In this document: positions 4,468 through 12,399 of the stretch, piece by piece
Position numbering within the stretch: position 1 is the stretch's first letter
How the letters are laid out: every line of letters starts with the position of its first letter
IMG/VR virus record: IMGVR_UViG_3300014205_000182
Location: 1 to 64,000 of that record
Direction: 5' to 3' (one strand)
From: a virus
Taxonomy: Duplodnaviria; Caudoviricetes
Length of the DNA stretch: 64,000 bases
Notes under the pieces: model-generated
Seen by the model: only the letters and a program-made list of their open reading frames with translations
Databases searched by the model: none
What the model was told of the DNA's origin: nothing
Made by a program: the position numbers and the translations under genes

Positions 4468-4546
4468 AGGATCTCTAGCTCAACGGTAGAGCGTGTCGCA
4501 GTGAAATGTGGCAAGGTTGTAGGTTCGAATCCTCCGAGATCCTCTA
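4468..4546 (+). ncRNA. tRNA-like RNA with a 7-bp anticodon stem and 6-nt loop
   Basis: Acceptor AGGATCTC/GAGATCCT; canonical D and T loops; TGTCGCA-GTGAAA-TGTGGCA. Confidence 0.65.
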
Positions 4547-5191: not shown

Positions 5192-5562
5192 GTGTAAGTA
5201 AACCAAAGACCTACCAGATTCCCTTCGCTGCTGACGATAAGCACATCAACATGCTGGAGTGGACGTCGGCCAAGCCTGGACAAGTACGTCAGCCAGGCGG
5301 ACCTGGCTGGAATATGCCAGACGAATGGCGTGATGTTTACGAATTCGATGCCGAGCTTGTGATGACTAGCTGGAGTAAGGGTCGTTCATCTGCACGATTC
5401 AATGTGCAGAACCACAAGCTCAAGGAAACCTACTCCCTGGCCATGTCCGGGTTCTACGACGCTATCAAGGCGTTTGGCATGCTACCTGGCGGGATTATCC
5501 AGGGACGCTGGACGTTCCGTAAGCAAGGCTCTAACTATGCTCTGGTTCCGGTGATCGTATGA
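5188..5562 (+). CDS. Hypothetical phage protein
   Basis: GTGA-coupled; GRSSA...GRWTFRKQGSNY. Confidence 0.65.
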   Translation: MSVSKPKTYQIPFAADDKHINMLEWTSAKPGQVRQPGGPGWNMPDEWRDVYEFDAELVMTSWSKGRSSARFNVQNHKLKETYSLAMSGFYDAIKAFGMLPGGIIQGRWTFRKQGSNYALVPVIV

Positions 5563-6500
5563 GGGTAAAAATGTGGACCGACGTAGAACGTATTCGTAGT
5601 TCAGACAAGAACGTCTTGAAGTACGTCTTCAAGAACAAGACGGCAGTTGCCGAGTCGGTACTCTACAAGTACCCAACCTATGAGGAGCGCACCGTCGTGT
5701 GCTGCTCTACGCAGTCTGGTTGCCCGGTTGGCTGCCGGTTCTGTGGTGCTGGAGATAGCTTCGTACGCTCTCTCACGGCAGCAGAGATCTACGAGCAACC
5801 AATGCGCCTATTCGAGGATCAGCAGATCGATCCTAACGCCGTGAAGCGTTTGCAGATCATGTTCATGAGCATGGGCGAGCCGATGCTCAACTTGAAGGAG
5901 CTAATCCCGGCGCTGTACGCCCTTCATGCCCAGATCCCAGGCGCTGCGCTGCTTGTCAGTACTTCCGGTCCGAGGATTGAATATGCTCCGTTCCGAAAGG
6001 TCTCGCAGGTAATCCCGACGGTTGGCCTGCAATTCTCCGTACACGAGAGCACGAACGAAGCACGCGATAAGCTGATCCCGTTCAAGGCTAAGCTGACTCT
6101 GGAGGAGATCGCTCAAGAAGGCACTGCCTGGTACGCCGAGACCGGTCGCCAGCCGTTCTTCAACTACTGTGCTCACGAGGGGAACACGTCAGAAGCTGAC
6201 GCAGACCGCTTGGCTGCGTTGTTCCGTCCTGGTTTCTGGCAGGCCACCATCTCGGTAGTCTGCGAGCGCGACGAGTCGGTAGCAGCTGCCAATGAACGTC
6301 AGCGTACGCTCGCTAGTGGTTTCCAGTCACTGCTTCAGCAGCGAGGGTTCAGCACTCGCATGTTTGATCCTGCTGGTCAGGATGACATCGGTGGAGGCTG
6401 TGGGCAGCTGTGGTTTGTCCAGGACTGGATGCGCCAGAACCCTCAGCTGGCGAAGCCGAGTGTCGGTCGTAGTCTTCCGGTGATCCATGCCCCTCGCTAG
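5559..6500 (+). CDS. RlmN/Cfr-like radical SAM RNA methyltransferase
   Basis: STQSGCPVGCRFC (CxxxCxxC), FMSMGEP and C-terminal GQDDIGGGCGQL. Confidence 0.85.
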   Translation: MRVKMWTDVERIRSSDKNVLKYVFKNKTAVAESVLYKYPTYEERTVVCCSTQSGCPVGCRFCGAGDSFVRSLTAAEIYEQPMRLFEDQQIDPNAVKRLQIMFMSMGEPMLNLKELIPALYALHAQIPGAALLVSTSGPRIEYAPFRKVSQVIPTVGLQFSVHESTNEARDKLIPFKAKLTLEEIAQEGTAWYAETGRQPFFNYCAHEGNTSEADADRLAALFRPGFWQATISVVCERDESVAAANERQRTLASGFQSLLQQRGFSTRMFDPAGQDDIGGGCGQLWFVQDWMRQNPQLAKPSVGRSLPVIHAPR

Positions 6501-6835
6501 TAAAGGCTGGGGTCCGTGGCGTTGTGAATGGTATTCCATTTGCTCTAGACACCGGCACGGCAGACCAGACGATCCGTGTACCCTGTGTCAAACAGGCTTC
6601 TGGTATAATTGCTGGGGCGGTGCTGTTAGCCGTGCCGTTCACGCTATTAGCCCCAGGTTCTGGCGCTGGTGGGTTAATCGATGAAACAGAGTAAAGACGA
6701 GTACTGTGAAGGGTGCGAAGACGAACACCCTTTGACCCGAGATCCTGTCACTGGACTTCTCTATCACACCAGCAAGGATCCGATCAGCGGTCGTACTTAT
6801 CAAGAAGTTTGCACACGCAGATCTGTTCAATCACG

Positions 6836-7231
6836 ATGACTACCTGGTACCGATATAACGACGTCGCCTACTCTACAGGGTACGACGAGTATCGCGACTG
6901 TAGTTCCGGTACTCGAATTGAAGTCGAACTTACAGAGTACGAAGTCCTTCGTTACACCCCGAAGGGTGCGTGGATCAACGCTAGCCCGTATCGCAGCGCT
7001 ACATCCTTTAAGCACATGAAAGATGAGAAGTTCGTACTGCTATCGGCACGTAAACGCTTCGCCCATCCAACCAAGGAGGAGGCGATGACGTCGTTCATCG
7101 CTCGCAAGAAGGCTCAGATTAGGATTTACAAAGCTCGGGTCAAACATGCCGAGGAAGCGCTAAAGCGAGCCGAGGAACTTACTCATGCTTCCCACGCTCA
7201 TAGTCACGCCAACGCCAGCGTCGACCTGTAA
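6836..7231 (+). CDS. Hypothetical phage protein
   Basis: ..TPKGAWI..KRFAHPTKEEAMTSFIARK..; start chosen at MTTWYRY. Confidence 0.6.
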   Translation: MTTWYRYNDVAYSTGYDEYRDCSSGTRIEVELTEYEVLRYTPKGAWINASPYRSATSFKHMKDEKFVLLSARKRFAHPTKEEAMTSFIARKKAQIRIYKARVKHAEEALKRAEELTHASHAHSHANASVDL

Positions 7232-7842
7232 GGTGACATGTCACACGATCCTCCGGGACGTCGATACTTCGTACCTTATCTCCGCGTTGACCCGACCCTA
7301 CTTGCTGCCGTCGCTGTGAGTCTCGCTCTTGCCCGAGGGTGGCGTTCCGCGCTTCGACGATCCTTGCTCGGAGCACGGCCATCGCCGTCTCCTTGTTCAG
7401 GGCTTGCGACCGCTCGGATTCACAGCGAACGACGACGCCGGTCGGTAGGTGCGTGATGCGAACCGCCGAGTCGGTCACGTTGCGATGCTGACCGCCAGCA
7501 CCGCTACCACGCATCGTTTCGATTTCTAGATCCTGATCCAGGATCTTAAGCTCGTGCTCACGGGGTTCTGGGAGCACTGCCACCGTAATCGTGCTCGTAT
7601 GCACGCGCCCCTTGCGATCTGTAGGGCTAATCATCTGCCAGCGGTGTCCACCGGCCTCGTGCTCGAAGACTTTGTCTACACCCTTGCCGTTCACACGGAG
7701 AATGATGTAGCCGTCTCGATGCTCGACTACTTCGAGGTCAAAGACCCCTCTTGTTGCAAACCTTTACGTAGATCGACAACTGCTGCTCAACGATGTAATC
7801 ACTATGCTTACCGCCCTCGGCGGATCGGATTTCTATAATCAT
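7179..7842 (-). CDS. Short class-I peptide chain release factor (about 220 aa) translated via a programmed +1 frameshift at 7737-7743
   Basis: ORF1 MIIEIRSAEGG...KRGL* ends AAGAGG-GGT-CTT-TGA-C; the +1 frame continues to HRWQMISPTDRKGRVHTS and GSGAGGQHRNVTDSAVR. Confidence 0.88.
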
Positions 7843-7846
7843 GACG

Positions 7847-7936
7847 CGGATAGTTGAGGAATCGAACCCCTCCCCAGCATTTAGCCAGGGCGAACTCCTT
7901 AGCAGGGAGCCTCTGTGCCTTACAGATTAACTATCC
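7847..7936 (-). tRNA. tRNA-Ser(GCT)
   Basis: Cloverleaf, loop CTGCTAA, long variable arm. Confidence 0.85.
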
Positions 7937-7938
7937 AT

Positions 7939-8024
7939 TGGCGGCAGGAATAGGAGTCGAACCCGGCCCCGAAGGGCACCTAGTTTTCAAGACTAGTAGG
8001 TCGCCAACCGACCTCTTTCCTGCC
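7939..8024 (-). tRNA. tRNA-Ser(TGA), atypical Sec-like fold
   Basis: 8-bp acceptor, 6-bp D stem, loop CTTGAAA, variable arm, GCCA end. Confidence 0.75.
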
Positions 8025-8274
8025 AGAATAGCAGCGCTCAACTCGTCTACGACGAGGAGCGCGAACTAGAACTGTGTGAGGATAGAGTGTACATAAAATG
8101 ATCCGGGGTTTAACGAGGGTGCCGGTACCTCGCAGCCATCGTGGGATGACCTCGTGGGCCAGGCCCACTATCTATATAGCGATGATGCTGATGTTTGTCA
8201 AGGAGCCCGGCGTTGAAAAGTCCGTACGAAAATTCCAACTCCCGGTAGGCATCGCAAGCGAGGCCGGGCATAAG

Positions 8275-8346
8275 TAGAGTATGAGGGAATCGAACCCTCA
8301 TTAATTGCTTGAAAGGCAACCGTCCTAGCCGTTGAACGAATACTCC
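8275..8346 (-). tRNA. tRNA-Glu(TTC)
   Basis: GTTGC-CTTTCAA-GCAAT. Confidence 0.85.
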
Positions 8347-8347
8347 A

Positions 8348-8421
8348 TGGTGGGGAGGGCTGGGAATGAACCAGCAAACACGGCCTTTTGCAGCCGCCGC
8401 TTTCTATTAGCGTACCTCCCC
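8348..8421 (-). ncRNA. tRNA-like RNA with a 6-nt anticodon loop
   Basis: Acceptor GGGGAGG/CCTCCCC-ACCA; CGGCT-GCAAAA-GGCCG. Confidence 0.6.
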
Positions 8422-8590
8422 GTAAAATGACCGGCCACGAACGAGCCCTGACCGGTTCTGTTAAGTGCCTAACACCACGACCGGTGCTTCGGGCCAAATC
8501 TCCTAGCAGGTTCGTTGCTAACCAATCCGTGTCCGTGATCAGCGGGCGTTATTGGACGTGGCTTGTTCTAATGGTTAAAGCCACGGGATC

Positions 8591-8661
8591 TAGTACCTCC
8601 AGCTGGTATCGCGCCAGCTTTCCGACGTTCGAAGCGTCGGGCTCGATCTTTCGTTGGAGGC
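8591..8661 (-). tRNA. tRNA-Arg(TCG), reduced D arm
   Basis: CGACG-CTTCGAA-CGTCG; acceptor GCCTCCA/TGGAGGT. Confidence 0.7.
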
Positions 8662-8666
8662 ATATC

Positions 8667-8736
8667 AGTGCAATCTAGCGGAATCGAACCGCTCCGTCAG
8701 ATTTAGGAAATCCAAGTCCTGTCCATAGGAGAGTGC
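8667..8736 (-). tRNA. tRNA-Arg(CCT), reduced D arm
   Basis: TGGAT-TTCCTAA-ATCTG; TTCGATT T loop. Confidence 0.75.
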
Positions 8737-8867
8737 ATATCCCTTACCTATCACCGATTCGTCCTAGCCTCGTTTAGCGGCGAGTATGGGGAAGGCTGCG
8801 TGCGCACGCTTTACCTACGAACAAGCTTCAGGGTCCCGTCTAAATCCCACTAGGGCGCGTGGGCGGT

Positions 8868-8938
8868 TGGCGTATCACCCAGGAATTGCACCTGGCACTG
8901 TCCGATTAGAAGTCAAACGTCTGTCTATCAGGTGATAC
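8868..8938 (-). tRNA. tRNA-Arg(TCT), reduced D arm
   Basis: TTTGA-CTTCTAA-TCGGA; GCCA end. Confidence 0.75.
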
Positions 8939-9014
8939 ATAGTCGTCGTGCGTTGTACCAGATTCCCGCCGTAGGGCCGTTAGGTACTTCCCTGTATCGA
9001 CGAACGCACGACGT

Positions 9015-9088
9015 TGGAGCACTCTGTCGGATTTGCACCGACGATCAACGGGTTGCAGCCGTTTGCCTTTCTACTTGGCCAAGAGTGC
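9015..9088 (-). tRNA. tRNA-Cys(GCA)
   Basis: AACGG-CTGCAAC-CCGTT; U73 followed by CCA. Confidence 0.9.
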
Positions 9089-9207
9089 AGAAACTAATGA
9101 GGGCGTTCCACCGTCATCGCCGGGTTTGCCGTCTTACGATCAAGACGTAGAGTGTCGCCATTGCGGGCAGGTAGCCACCGGACTACGAACGCGTATACAC
9201 GTTCCAG

Positions 9208-9298
9208 AGTGTAAGGCGGGAGTCGAACCCACAAAGACCCGAGCCCCGTTATCTCACGACAACTCACTCAGTATGTCTGCCAATTGCATCACTTACAT
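9208..9298 (-). ncRNA. tRNA-like RNA with the anticodon arm replaced by a long GNRA-capped hairpin
   Basis: Canonical D/T loops; CTGAGT-GA-GTTGTC-GTGA-GATAAC-GGG-GCTCGG. Confidence 0.65.
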
Positions 9299-9301
9299 TC
9301 G

Positions 9302-9375
9302 TTCGGGGTGAAGGTTACGATCCCTCGTCTCTCGCTTCAAAGGCGAGCGTCTTAGCCCATTAGACAGAACCCCGA
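9302..9375 (-). tRNA. tRNA-Gln(TTG)
   Basis: CTCGC-CTTTGAA-GCGAG; U1:A72. Confidence 0.85.
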
Positions 9376-9449
9376 ATGGCGCCTTGTTCCGACTTGCCAC
9401 GGCTCGCCACCATTGCTGGCCACGGGTCCCCTGGGCTAGGACCGGCGCG

Positions 9450-9521
9450 TAGTGCTCCCACTCGGAATCGAACCGAGCCTCCACCCATACCAAGGGTAGG
9501 TACTCACCAGACGTCAAGAGC
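9450..9521 (-). tRNA. tRNA-Thr(GGT)
   Basis: TACCC-TTGGTAT-GGGTG. Confidence 0.8.
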
Positions 9522-12325: not shown

Positions 12326-12399
12326 TGGTATGTGTCCGAGGATTCGAACCTCGATCGCCAGGTATCACCCCGGAGTTTTACCAGTTAAACTAGACACAC
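12326..12399 (-). ncRNA. tRNA-like RNA with a 6-nt anticodon loop (GTGATA)
   Basis: Canonical body with ACCA end; CCGGG-GTGATA-CCTGG. Confidence 0.65.

What the first reader, a model, noticed from the sequence alone, without database searches (positions are those of the whole stretch)
7179..7842. Phage release factor expressed through a prfB-type +1 frameshift at the end of the tRNA operon
Seen in sequence: ATG 7842 starts 4 nt after tRNA-Ser(GCT). ORF1 (34 aa) ends AAGAGG-GGT-CTT-TGA-C, and the +1 frame encodes the GGQ domain. Established: E. coli prfB uses an internal SD plus CTT-TGA-C so RF2 is made only when UGA termination is weak. The product (about 220 aa) lacks RF domain 1, and its specificity loop is SPT, a mix of RF2 SPF and RF1 PxT. 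Inference: a back-up or rescue release factor that senses low RF2 activity. The ORF track reports only the truncated 171-aa part.
Basis: partly seen in the sequence, partly recalled or inferred. Interest (0 to 1): 0.75.

Follow-up and report, generated by a model that had tools for sequence, protein, structure and literature searches.

The report
Frameshift-gated short phage release factor
An uncultured 144-kb phage carries, right after its tRNA genes, a shortened RF1-type translation-termination factor that can only be made in full if the ribosome slips one base forward at an internal CUU-UGA-C, a switch described so far only for bacterial RF2; over a hundred related phage genes keep the same switch.

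Summary
On the minus strand, ATG 7842 lies 3 nt after tRNA-Ser(GCT). A 34-codon ORF ends AGAGG-GGT-CTT-TGA-C, and the +1 frame continues to 7179. The joined 220-aa protein aligns without a break to domains 2-4 of RF1. It has GGQ, no domain 1, and SPT in place of PxT.

It is not an assembly error. An independent assembly of the likely source sample is identical. A contig from another study that differs at 19 of 258 bases keeps the site without an indel.

Among 135 distinct relatives from viral and metagenome contigs, 109 need the same +1 shift. Their consensus is C-GGAGG-N3-CTT-T(GA/AG/AA)-C. Thirteen more carry an in-frame stop at or next to that codon, and 12 are continuous. The gate codon is TGA in 75, TAG in 31 and TAA in 3, and it changed at least 23 times on the tree. 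This contrasts with bacterial prfB, where TAG is never seen.

The family is a single clade derived from RF1 and is almost absent from bacterial genomes. I found no paper describing it. This scan has already found the same family on at least eight other genomes. Stop-codon specificity and biological role remain inferred.

The parts
7846..7936 (-). tRNA-Ser(GCT), the last tRNA of the minus-strand tRNA array. Its 3' end lies 3 nt before the release-factor start codon.
   Evidence: ARAGORN; sequence
7738..7842 (-). ORF1 (frame 0): ATG 7842 plus 34 codons and the TGA gate. It encodes strand 1 and the alpha-5-equivalent helix of RF domain 2 (MIIEIRSAEGGKHS...KRGL). No SD-like sequence lies upstream, because the tRNA abuts it.
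   Evidence: It aligns with RF1 residues 89-121. The AlphaFold model has E2-9 and H12-31 with pLDDT >90.
7804..7815 (-). Codons for G10-G11-K12-H13, the tip of the helix that reads U1 of the stop codon in RF1/RF2. Bacterial RF1 has GG(E/D)E and the phage family has GGxD. This gene has H at the position of the universally conserved Glu.
   Evidence: Alignment columns
7747..7751 (-). Internal Shine-Dalgarno-like AGAGG, 3 nt (GGT, 7746-7744) upstream of the shift codon. The family consensus is GGAGG at the same 3-nt spacing.
   Evidence: GGAGG at spacing 3 in 65/109, AGAGG in 2/109
7737..7743 (-). Shift site CTT TGA C: P-site Leu codon CUU, in-frame UGA gate, and C at +4 (a weak termination context). 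tRNA-Leu re-pairs on UUU and reading continues with GAC.
   Evidence: Positions -3..0 are 99-100% invariant in 109 distinct homologs, and +4 is C in 84%.
7179..7739 (-). ORF2 (+1 frame): 186 codons from GAC 7739 to TAA 7181-7179. It encodes the rest of domain 2/4 and the GGQ domain 3.
7620..7628 (-). Codons for S72-P73-T74, the 'tripeptide anticodon' position (RF1 PxT, RF2 SPF). The local context QMISPTD resembles RF2 ISPFD, while the third-base elements stay RF1-like (Q69, H81-T82).
7488..7496 (-). GGC GGT CAG, the catalytic GGQ motif (residues 116-118)
   Evidence: invariant in the family

Best explanation
This is a real phage gene for a class I peptide release factor of RF1 descent that has lost domain 1. 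Its synthesis is gated by a prfB-type programmed +1 ribosomal frameshift.

**How the gate works**
- Ribosomes start at AUG 7842, on an RNA that most likely comes from the tRNA-array transcript. The start abuts tRNA-Ser and has no SD.
- They translate 34 codons and stop with CUU in the P site and UGA-C in the A site.
- If termination at UGA is fast (host RF2 is ample), a useless 34-aa peptide is released.
- If termination is slow, the AGAGG element 3 nt upstream pairs with the 16S rRNA tail. tRNA-Leu then slips from CUU to UUU, and the +1 frame yields the 220-aa factor.
- Output therefore rises when termination capacity in the infected cell falls, and the potentially toxic factor stays scarce otherwise.

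**What the product probably does**
- It most likely acts as a stop-codon-dependent release factor that works without RF3 or L11-stalk contacts.
- It would top up termination for a phage whose own genes end mostly in TGA, as part of a phage translation module (about 27 tRNAs on the same strand).

**Shown**
- The gene architecture.
- Homology running across the junction.
- Conservation of the cassette.
- RF1 ancestry and loss of domain 1.
- The site is not a sequencing error.

**Inferred**
- Frameshifting actually occurs and responds to RF2.
- Codon specificity of the product.
- Co-transcription with the tRNAs.
- The benefit to the phage.
For: **Anatomy and product**
- Anatomy is as described.
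- The joined product hits prfA best (2.3e-65, profile positions 115-323 of 361). It also hits Pfam PCRF plus RF-1.
- The alignment to Thermotoga RF1 runs 2-205 against 89-298, straight across the junction.
- The AlphaFold model (pLDDT 85) matches ribosome-bound RF1 at TM 0.81-0.84. That is better than RF2 (about 0.75) and PrfH (0.65).
- The junction lies in the loop between the first helix and the next strand.

**Census of 135 distinct relatives**
- 109 need a +1 shift: CTT in 108 and TTT in 1.
- 13 have an in-frame stop at or next to the same codon, and 12 are continuous.
- The logo is C-GGAGG-N3-CTT-T[GA][AG]-C. The synonymous third position of the Leu codon is 100% T.

**Phylogeny and distribution**
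- The family is monophyletic against 26 bacterial RF1 (support 0.993). The frameshift is held throughout a crown clade of 127.
- In one genome for each of 185,579 bacterial and archaeal species, 79 of the 80 best matches are ordinary full-length prfA. Only one is a family member.

**Read-level check**
- An independent Logan contig of the likely source run matches with 0 differences and 0 gaps.
- A contig from a different study (an aquifer metagenome) covers 7681-7938 with 19 substitutions and no indel. No listed difference falls in the cassette.

**Context in this phage**
- It has a single RF-domain gene.
- Stops of 222 long ORFs are TGA 122, TAA 67 and TAG 33.
- No sigma-70-like promoter was found between the tRNAs and the gene.
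- Same-strand tRNAs lie within 300 nt upstream in 30 of 135 relatives.

**Established knowledge**
- The prfB mechanism and the toxicity of ungated RF2 are described in PMC12421855.
Against: - There is no expression, proteomic or reporter evidence. No RNA run holds the stretch.
- The product looks RF1-type at the third-base pocket (Q69, T82). A UGA gate therefore need not be relieved by the product, so classical autoregulation as in prfB is not established.
- In the family, TGA and TAG gates occur with identical PPT loops. The gate codon does not follow local stop-codon usage or GC. What the gate measures is thus unclear.
- This gene's SD-like element (AGAGG) is weaker than the family consensus.
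- The decoding elements deviate from invariants at three points: E/D13 to H, R70 to M, and P72 to S. Canonical stop recognition cannot be assumed.
- The start codon has no SD.
Confidence: 0.75

Rival explanations
1. True autoregulation by a broadened (omnipotent) factor. The SPT loop (Ser as in RF2 for the second base, Gln/Thr as in RF1 for the third base) lets the product read UGA as well as UAA and UAG. The factor would then shut off its own synthesis at the UGA gate exactly as RF2 does. More generally, the family would read all three stops, which would explain why any stop codon can serve as the gate.
For: - The loop is QMISPTD, against RF2 RISPFD and RF1 QRVPATE.
- SPx arose in at least 5 separate clades. 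It co-occurs with Lys/Arg at the helix tip: 6 of 8 against 5 of 127, Fisher p = 1.6e-6, not corrected for phylogeny.
- The gate codon changed at least 23 times between TGA, TAG and TAA with unchanged loops. In prfB, none of 8,164 motifs has TAG (PMC12421855).
- The tripeptide rule comes from Ito et al. 2000 (from my memory; the paper is not held).
Against: - Most family members have PPT, a PxT-type loop, with TGA gates. The loop alone therefore does not predict UGA reading.
- Experimentally evolved RF2 variants that gain UAG reading also terminate on UGG and are toxic (PMC7530605).
- No biochemical data exist.
Confidence: 0.25
2. A PrfH/ArfB-like rescue factor for damaged, non-stop or toxin-jammed ribosomes. 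It would be made when ribosomes stall and would act independently of a stop codon.
For: - It lacks domain 1, as PrfH does.
- The universally conserved Glu at the helix tip is replaced, and the conserved His before Thr-Ser is Gln in about half of the family.
Against: - The PrfH model scores 106.5 bits against a cut-off of 166.65.
- The ArfB model matches only 35 residues.
- No RtcB is present in the 143.7-kb genome.
- Most RF1 codon-reading residues are kept and shared as invariants with bacterial RF1: G10, G11, Q69, T82, S83.
- The fold match is better to RF1 than to PrfH.
Confidence: 0.1
3. A host-manipulating competitor rather than a helper. A domain-1-less factor that RF3 cannot recycle would occupy stop codons to alter host termination or readthrough, and the gate would keep its dose low.
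For: - Domain 1, the GTPase- and RF3-interacting domain (PMC6514570), is absent.
- The tight gate suggests that dose matters.
Against: - GGQ and the whole catalytic domain are invariant, which argues for catalysis and not for blocking.
- The gene is linked to tRNA arrays that support translation.
Confidence: 0.07
4. No recoding. The gene is a pseudogene or carries an assembly error, or the functional product is the 171-aa protein started at GTG 7694 and ORF1 is an unrelated upstream peptide.
For: Gene callers report only the 171-aa piece, both here and in close relatives.
Against: - ORF1 is homologous to the first strand and helix of RF domain 2 and is continuous with the rest in 12 relatives.
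- The cassette is conserved at synonymous sites in 109 distinct genes from many studies.
- An independent assembly and a diverged relative show no indel.
- A 171-aa product would lack the helix that reads U1.
Confidence: 0.03

Closest known systems
Bacterial prfB (RF2) autoregulatory +1 programmed frameshift, SD-N3-CUU-UGA-C (surveyed in PMC12421855)
   Same: - The cassette has the same architecture: an internal SD 3 nt before CUU, a stop in the A site and C at +4.
- The short ORF0 is of similar size (about 34-38 codons here, about 25 in prfB).
- The gated gene is a class I release factor.
   Different: - The gene is RF1-derived and lacks domain 1.
- It is viral.
- Across the family the gate is TGA 69%, TAG 28% and TAA 3%. 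In prfB it is 98.6% TGA, with none of 8,164 motifs carrying TAG.
- That survey found no programmed frameshift in prfA.
- Feedback by the product itself is unproven.
PrfH (RF-H), the domain-1-less release-factor homolog paired with RtcB (PMC1586002, PMC6514570; PDB 9mor, 7sa4)
   Same: [quoted passage not shown] It keeps a codon-recognition-type domain plus GGQ.
   Different: - The score is below the TIGR03072 cut-off.
- There is no RtcB partner.
- The loop is RF1/RF2-like, not the SxY of PrfH.
- Sequence and fold are closer to RF1.
Full-length RF1/RF2 genes reported in huge and stop-codon-recoded phages (PMC7162821; bioRxiv 10.1101/2021.08.26.457843)
   Same: These are phage-encoded class I release factors that lie near tRNA or 'code-change' genes.
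   Different: - Those reports describe RF1 or RF2 presence only, with no frameshift gate and no loss of domain 1.
- This phage shows no sign of recoding: coding density is normal under code 11 and no suppressor tRNA was found.
Mimivirus/Megavirus class I release factor gene, read through one frameshift and one readthrough (PMC3521657)
   Same: A virus-encoded termination factor whose own synthesis passes through internal stop codons. This family likewise has both frameshift and in-frame-stop versions.
   Different: That gene is an eRF1-type protein of a eukaryotic virus, so the origins are independent. Here each gene uses one event, at one conserved codon.

Membership tests
Bacterial class I release factor RF1 (prfA, TIGR00019) | Score at or above the curated NCBIfam cut-off over the full length | tested here: not met
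   220.9 bits against a cut-off of 423.25. Only profile positions 115-323 of 361 are covered.
Bacterial class I release factor RF1 (prfA, TIGR00019) | N-terminal helical domain 1 (contacts RF3 and the L11 stalk) | tested here: not met
   The protein starts at the RF1 position equivalent to about residue 89-113, and a tRNA gene lies directly upstream. By contrast, 79 of 80 bacterial hits have more than 80 aa of open frame upstream.
Bacterial class I release factor RF1 (prfA, TIGR00019) | Catalytic GGQ in domain 3 | tested here: met
   G116-G117-Q118. The motif is invariant in the family.
Bacterial class I release factor RF1 (prfA, TIGR00019) | PxT tripeptide and RF1-type third-base pocket (Gln before the loop, His-Thr after it) | tested here: inconclusive
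   Q69 and H81-T82 are present. The tripeptide is SPT, not PxT, and R70 is Met. Most relatives have PPT.
Bacterial class I release factor RF1 (prfA, TIGR00019) | Gly-Gly-x-Glu helix tip that reads U1 | tested here: not met
   The tip is GGKH here and GGxD in 94% of the family. Bacterial RF1 has 100% Glu.
prfB-type programmed +1 frameshift | SD-like element 3 nt upstream of a CUU P-site codon, followed by an in-frame stop and C | tested here: met
   The site is AGAGG-GGT-CTT-TGA-C at 7751-7737. The family logo is GGAGG-N3-CTT-stop-C.
prfB-type programmed +1 frameshift | Homology to the protein family continues across the junction in the +1 frame | tested here: met
   Single HMMER and PDB alignments span residues 2-205.
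prfB-type programmed +1 frameshift | Conservation of the site among homologs | tested here: met
   109 of 135 distinct relatives carry it. Shift-site positions are 99-100% invariant.
prfB-type programmed +1 frameshift | The gate codon is read by the gene's own product (negative feedback) | not testable with these tools
   The product is RF1-derived with a hybrid SPT loop, and UGA recognition is unknown. TGA and TAG gates both occur with PPT loops.
prfB-type programmed +1 frameshift | Frameshifting demonstrated in vivo or in vitro | not testable with these tools
   No RNA or proteome data are available. Only DNA contigs hold the stretch.
PrfH (TIGR03072) | Score over the cut-off and an operon with rtcB | tested here: not met
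   106.5 bits and 95.3 bits against a cut-off of 166.65. The phage genome has no RtcB match.
ArfB (NF006718) | GGQ domain alone plus a basic C-terminal tail, with no codon-recognition domain | tested here: not met
   The ArfB model matches only residues 96-130 (35.7 bits against a cut-off of 100). The PCRF domain is present.

The most novel reading that the evidence does not exclude
Phages have evolved a compact, RF3-independent release factor with broadened or omnipotent stop-codon reading. It would be a hybrid of the RF2 second-base reader (ISPxD) and the RF1 third-base pocket (Q...HT). Bacteria apparently cannot afford such a factor because of UGG mistermination. The conserved stop-codon gate, which can be a frameshift or an in-frame stop and can use any of the three stops, would be the safety device that keeps this dangerous factor at the minimum dose. 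It would do so through direct negative feedback.
Probability: 0.2. Interest if true: 0.9.

Novelty: new variant of a known kind. Interest (0 to 1): 0.7.

Why it matters
- The prfB frameshift is the textbook case of translational autoregulation. A 2025 survey of more than 12,000 genomes concluded that it is exclusive to RF2, never uses UAG, and has no counterpart in prfA (PMC12421855).
- Here the same cassette gates an RF1-derived factor in a large, purely viral family. It uses UGA, UAG or UAA interchangeably and is sometimes replaced by an in-frame stop at the same codon. The device is therefore a general 'termination-capacity gate', not a peculiarity of RF2.
- The family offers natural minimal release factors of 220 aa without domain 1, with hybrid decoding loops. 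These bear on two questions: how stop-codon specificity is encoded, and why bacteria keep two factors.
- Such factors could also be useful for genetic-code engineering.
- In practice, gene callers truncate these genes to 170-215 aa, so phage annotations systematically miss them.

Tried and rejected
- **The look-up of encoding contigs:** DNA of the closest relatives (70-85% identity, P0003-P0008) could therefore not be fetched. Their cassette is inferred only from +1-frame N-terminal residues (GGVFD, GGLFD) and from the aquifer contig.
- **Megablast of 6500-9500 against deposited phages:** no match.
- **tblastn against deposited phages:** no cultured phage matches at 50% identity or more. The top rows are unannotated or mislabelled bacterial contigs. 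The 202 Mycobacterium-phage records were not examined.
- **RNA evidence:** no RNA holder is listed.
- **Gate codon against tripeptide:** no association. PPT occurs with TGA 50 times and with TAG 19 times.
- **Gate codon against local GC or stop-codon usage:** no difference, Mann-Whitney p = 0.37-0.82.
- **Recoding as the explanation of the in-frame-stop relatives:** a crude ORF-coverage test shows normal density (about 0.9) under code 11. Global recoding is therefore unlikely, but this was not tested rigorously.
- **Promoter and terminator scan of 6600-8400:** no promoter, and no convincing terminator after the gene.
- **Quadruplet tRNA:** the phage tRNA-like gene at 4469-4544 has a UGAA anticodon. 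It would read UUCA, which is not in the shift site, so I rejected it as a frameshift helper.
- **Papers not held:** Ito et al. 2000 and Mora et al. 2003. What I say about them is from memory.
- **Literature searches:** five searches found no description of a frameshift-gated or domain-1-less phage release factor (papers read).
- **prfB site in L256:** a pattern search for the Acetobacter prfB site printed nothing, and I did not pursue it.

Full report
**1. What is in the sequence**

- On the minus strand, tRNA-Ser(GCT) occupies 7846-7936. It is the last of about 27 same-strand tRNA genes between 7846 and 17393.
- Three bases later, ATG 7842 opens a 34-codon frame ending AAG AGG GGT CTT TGA C, with CTT at 7743-7741 and TGA at 7740-7738.
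- The +1 frame is open from GAC 7739 to TAA 7181-7179.
- Reading CTTT as one Leu step gives a 220-aa protein, P0001.
- The ORF list shows only the GTG-started 171-aa piece.
- RAGG-N3-CTTTGAC occurs once in the window, against 0.1 expected by chance.

**2. What the protein is**

- NCBIfam ranks prfA first at 2.3e-65, covering profile positions 115-323 of 361. prfB follows at 4.7e-44 and prfH at 1.2e-30. All three are below their cut-offs. ArfB matches only 35 residues.
- Pfam finds the C-terminal half of PCRF plus the RF-1 (GGQ) domain.
- Against solved structures the best match is Thermotoga RF1 (5e-50). The alignment runs 2-205 against 89-298 straight across the junction, with KRGLDLEVVE under ERKGWNLEVAE. 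S72-P73-T74 lies under P-V-T.
- An AlphaFold model (mean pLDDT 85) places ORF1 as strand 2-9 plus helix 12-31, with the junction in the following loop.
- The model superposes best on ribosome-bound RF1 (TM 0.81-0.84), then mtRF1a, RF2 (about 0.75) and PrfH (0.65).
- The product is therefore domains 2-4 of an RF1-type factor without domain 1.
- ORF1 encodes the helix whose tip reads U1, so the 171-aa product would be crippled.

**3. Not an error**

- The stretch is held by a landfill metagenome run, which is probably the source. An independent Logan contig of 17 kb from that run matches 7100-8000 with 0 differences and 0 gaps.
- A contig from a different study (an aquifer metagenome) covers 7681-7938 with 19 substitutions and no indel. 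No listed difference falls in 7737-7751.

**4. Relatives**

- A protein search returned thousands of hits. The best 120 fall into two groups. One covers the full length (about 220-230 aa, 50-58% identity). The other starts at query residue 34 and is preceded by '+1-frame' residues such as GGVFD, GGLFS or GGLFN.
- I fetched 173 loci from IMG/VR and JGI metagenomes. I assigned frames with a family HMM and built conceptual products.
- Of 135 distinct products:

| Class | Count | Detail |
|---|---|---|
| +1 frameshift | 109 | P-site codon CTT 108, TTT 1; gate TGA 75, TAG 31, TAA 3 |
| In-frame stop at or next to the same codon | 13 | includes a clade of eight, seven reading TAT TGA CTG and one CTA TGA CTG, with one further TAG member |
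| Continuous | 12 | |
| Odd | 1 | L045, a near-copy of L011 with an extra frame change |

- The nucleotide logo is C-GGAGG-N3-CTT-T[GA][AG]-C. Positions -3 to 0 are 99-100% invariant, including the synonymous third base of the Leu codon. The +4 base is C in 84%, G in 14% and never T. GGAGG sits at exactly 3-nt spacing in 65 of 109.
- The window's AGAGG-GGT-CTT-TGA-C is a weaker-SD member of this pattern.
- ORF0 length is 33-42 codons, with a mode of 36-37.

**5. Phylogeny and distribution**

- With 26 bacterial RF1 sequences (domains 2-4) as outgroup, the viral family is one clade (support 0.993).
- The basal branches are continuous genes. A crown clade of 127 taxa holds 108 frameshift, 12 in-frame-stop and 7 continuous members.
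- Fitch parsimony on this single FastTree topology gives 10 changes of architecture and at least 23 changes of gate codon.
- In one genome for each of 185,579 bacterial and archaeal species, 79 of the 80 best hits are ordinary prfA at 49% identity or less with a long N-terminal domain. Only L178 (a MAG contig) belongs to the family.
- Earlier notes of this scan mention myxobacterial copies. I did not test that.

**6. Decoding elements**

- The family shares with bacterial RF1 the invariants G10, G11, Q69, P72, T82, S83 and GGQ, among others.
- It differs at fixed positions:
  - The universal Glu of the helix tip is Asp in 94%.
  - HRVQ becomes HRWQ.
  - V65 becomes Gly.
- The His before Thr-Ser is Gln in about half of the members.
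- This phage's subclade departs further, with GGKH at the tip and QMISPTD in the loop.
- Aligned with RF1 and RF2 taken from two bacterial genomes, ISPTD matches RF2 ISPFD at four of five positions. Q69 and HTST stay RF1-like.
- Relatives of 72-85% identity whose loop is seen (P0003-P0008) all keep SPT, with R70 replaced by Met or Ala.
- SPx arose in at least five places on the tree. It goes with Lys/Arg at the helix tip: 6 of 8 against 5 of 127, p = 1.6e-6, uncorrected for relatedness.
- By the tripeptide rule (Ito et al. 2000, from memory), Ser-x-Thr would permit A or G at both the second and third positions. That predicts a broadened factor. It is a lead, not a result.

**7. What the gate senses**

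- In prfB the gate is TGA in 98.6% of 8,164 motifs and never TAG. That fits strict RF2 feedback. No programmed shift exists in prfA (PMC12421855).
- In RECODE, all CUU-stop sites are prfB (PMC10885494).
- In this family, TGA and TAG gates carry the same PPT loops.
- The gate codon is unrelated to local GC or stop usage, and it flips often.
- Two readings remain:
  - The gate reports general termination capacity through whichever weak stop context is present.
  - The factors read more than RF1's two codons, so that any stop gives feedback.
- For this phage the gate is UGA-C. By the established prfB mechanism it responds to RF2.
- The phage ends 122 of 222 long ORFs in TGA and has no other RF-domain gene.

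**8. Context**

- No promoter-like site lies between the tRNAs and the gene, and no clear terminator follows it.
- The gene is the last one on this strand, facing a 172-aa ORF and a radical-SAM gene on the other strand.
- The ATG has no SD-like sequence. In contrast, 60 of 109 relatives have an SD-like 4-mer upstream of the ORF0 start.
- tRNA 3' processing would leave a near-leaderless mRNA. This is inference.
- Linkage to tRNA arrays recurs. A same-strand tRNA lies within 300 nt upstream in 30 of 135 relatives and within 30 nt in 8.
- No RtcB is present, and the PrfH model is below its cut-off. This argues against a PrfH-type repair-coupled rescue role.

**9. Literature**

- Huge-phage and recoded-phage papers list RF1 and RF2 genes but mention no frameshift and no domain loss (PMC7162821; 10.1101/2021.08.26.457843).
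- The release-factor evolution survey does not treat phages (PMC6514570).
- The large recoding review has no mention of RF1 or prfA (PMC5009743).
- The nearest conceptual parallel is the Mimivirus eRF1-type gene, which is read through a frameshift and a readthrough (PMC3521657).
- Omnipotence is costly for evolved RF2 because of UGG termination (PMC7530605). That cost would give a reason for a tight gate.

**10. Verdict**

It is too narrow about 'RF2 sensing', and 'rescue' is unsupported.
- This scan has reported the same family on at least eight other genomes. My census was made before I saw those notes and agrees with them.
- New for this window:
  - the RF2-like ISPTD loop together with helix-tip changes;
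  - the tRNA-abutting start without an SD;
  - the weak AGAGG element;
  - the read-level check.

Noticed in passing
L096, L097, L099, L102, L103, L110, L001/L081/L094, L005/L083 (release-factor gene near the locus centre): A clade of relatives has an in-frame stop exactly where others frameshift. Most read GGG TAT TGA CTG, one (L001 with its duplicate loci) reads CTA TGA, and one member (L005) has TAG. The gene sits between tRNA-Glu(CTC) and tRNA-Glu(TTC)-tRNA-Met. Coding density is normal under code 11, so this looks like gene-specific readthrough and not a recoded genome.
   Followed up: partly
window 7840-7846 (minus strand): The release-factor start codon follows the tRNA-Ser 3' end after only GTC, and no Shine-Dalgarno sequence is present. 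tRNA 3' processing would create an almost leaderless mRNA, a 'tRNA punctuation' arrangement.
   Followed up: partly
family alignment, P0001 positions 13 and 81: The Glu of the GGxE helix tip is invariant in the bacterial RF1 outgroup and present in the two RF2 aligned here. It is Asp in 94% of the phage family. The His of the His-Thr-Ser motif, present in 25 of 26 outgroup RF1, is Gln in about half of the family.
   Followed up: partly
window 4469-4544 (+) and 12326-12399 (-): ARAGORN calls two tRNA-like genes with abnormal anticodon loops, one with a 4-nt 'tgaa' anticodon and one with a 2-nt 'ga'. The first would read UUCA, not the shift site.
   Followed up: no
This would be a possible second TGA-C +1 site, and I did not examine it.
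   Followed up: no
window 6713-7231 (+): A 172-aa ORF with no Pfam match converges on the 3' end of the release-factor gene and overlaps it by about 50 nt. A radical-SAM-type gene lies upstream at 5559-6500 (weak Pfam match, below the cut-off).
   Followed up: partly
L045 against L011: L045 carries the same CTT TAG C cassette as L011 but needs a further frame change downstream. This is probably a sequencing error or a decaying copy.
   Followed up: no
L073: This is the only relative with TTT instead of CTT as shift codon (GGAGG-TCA-TTT-TAG-C). UUU to UUU re-pairing would be perfect.
   Followed up: no
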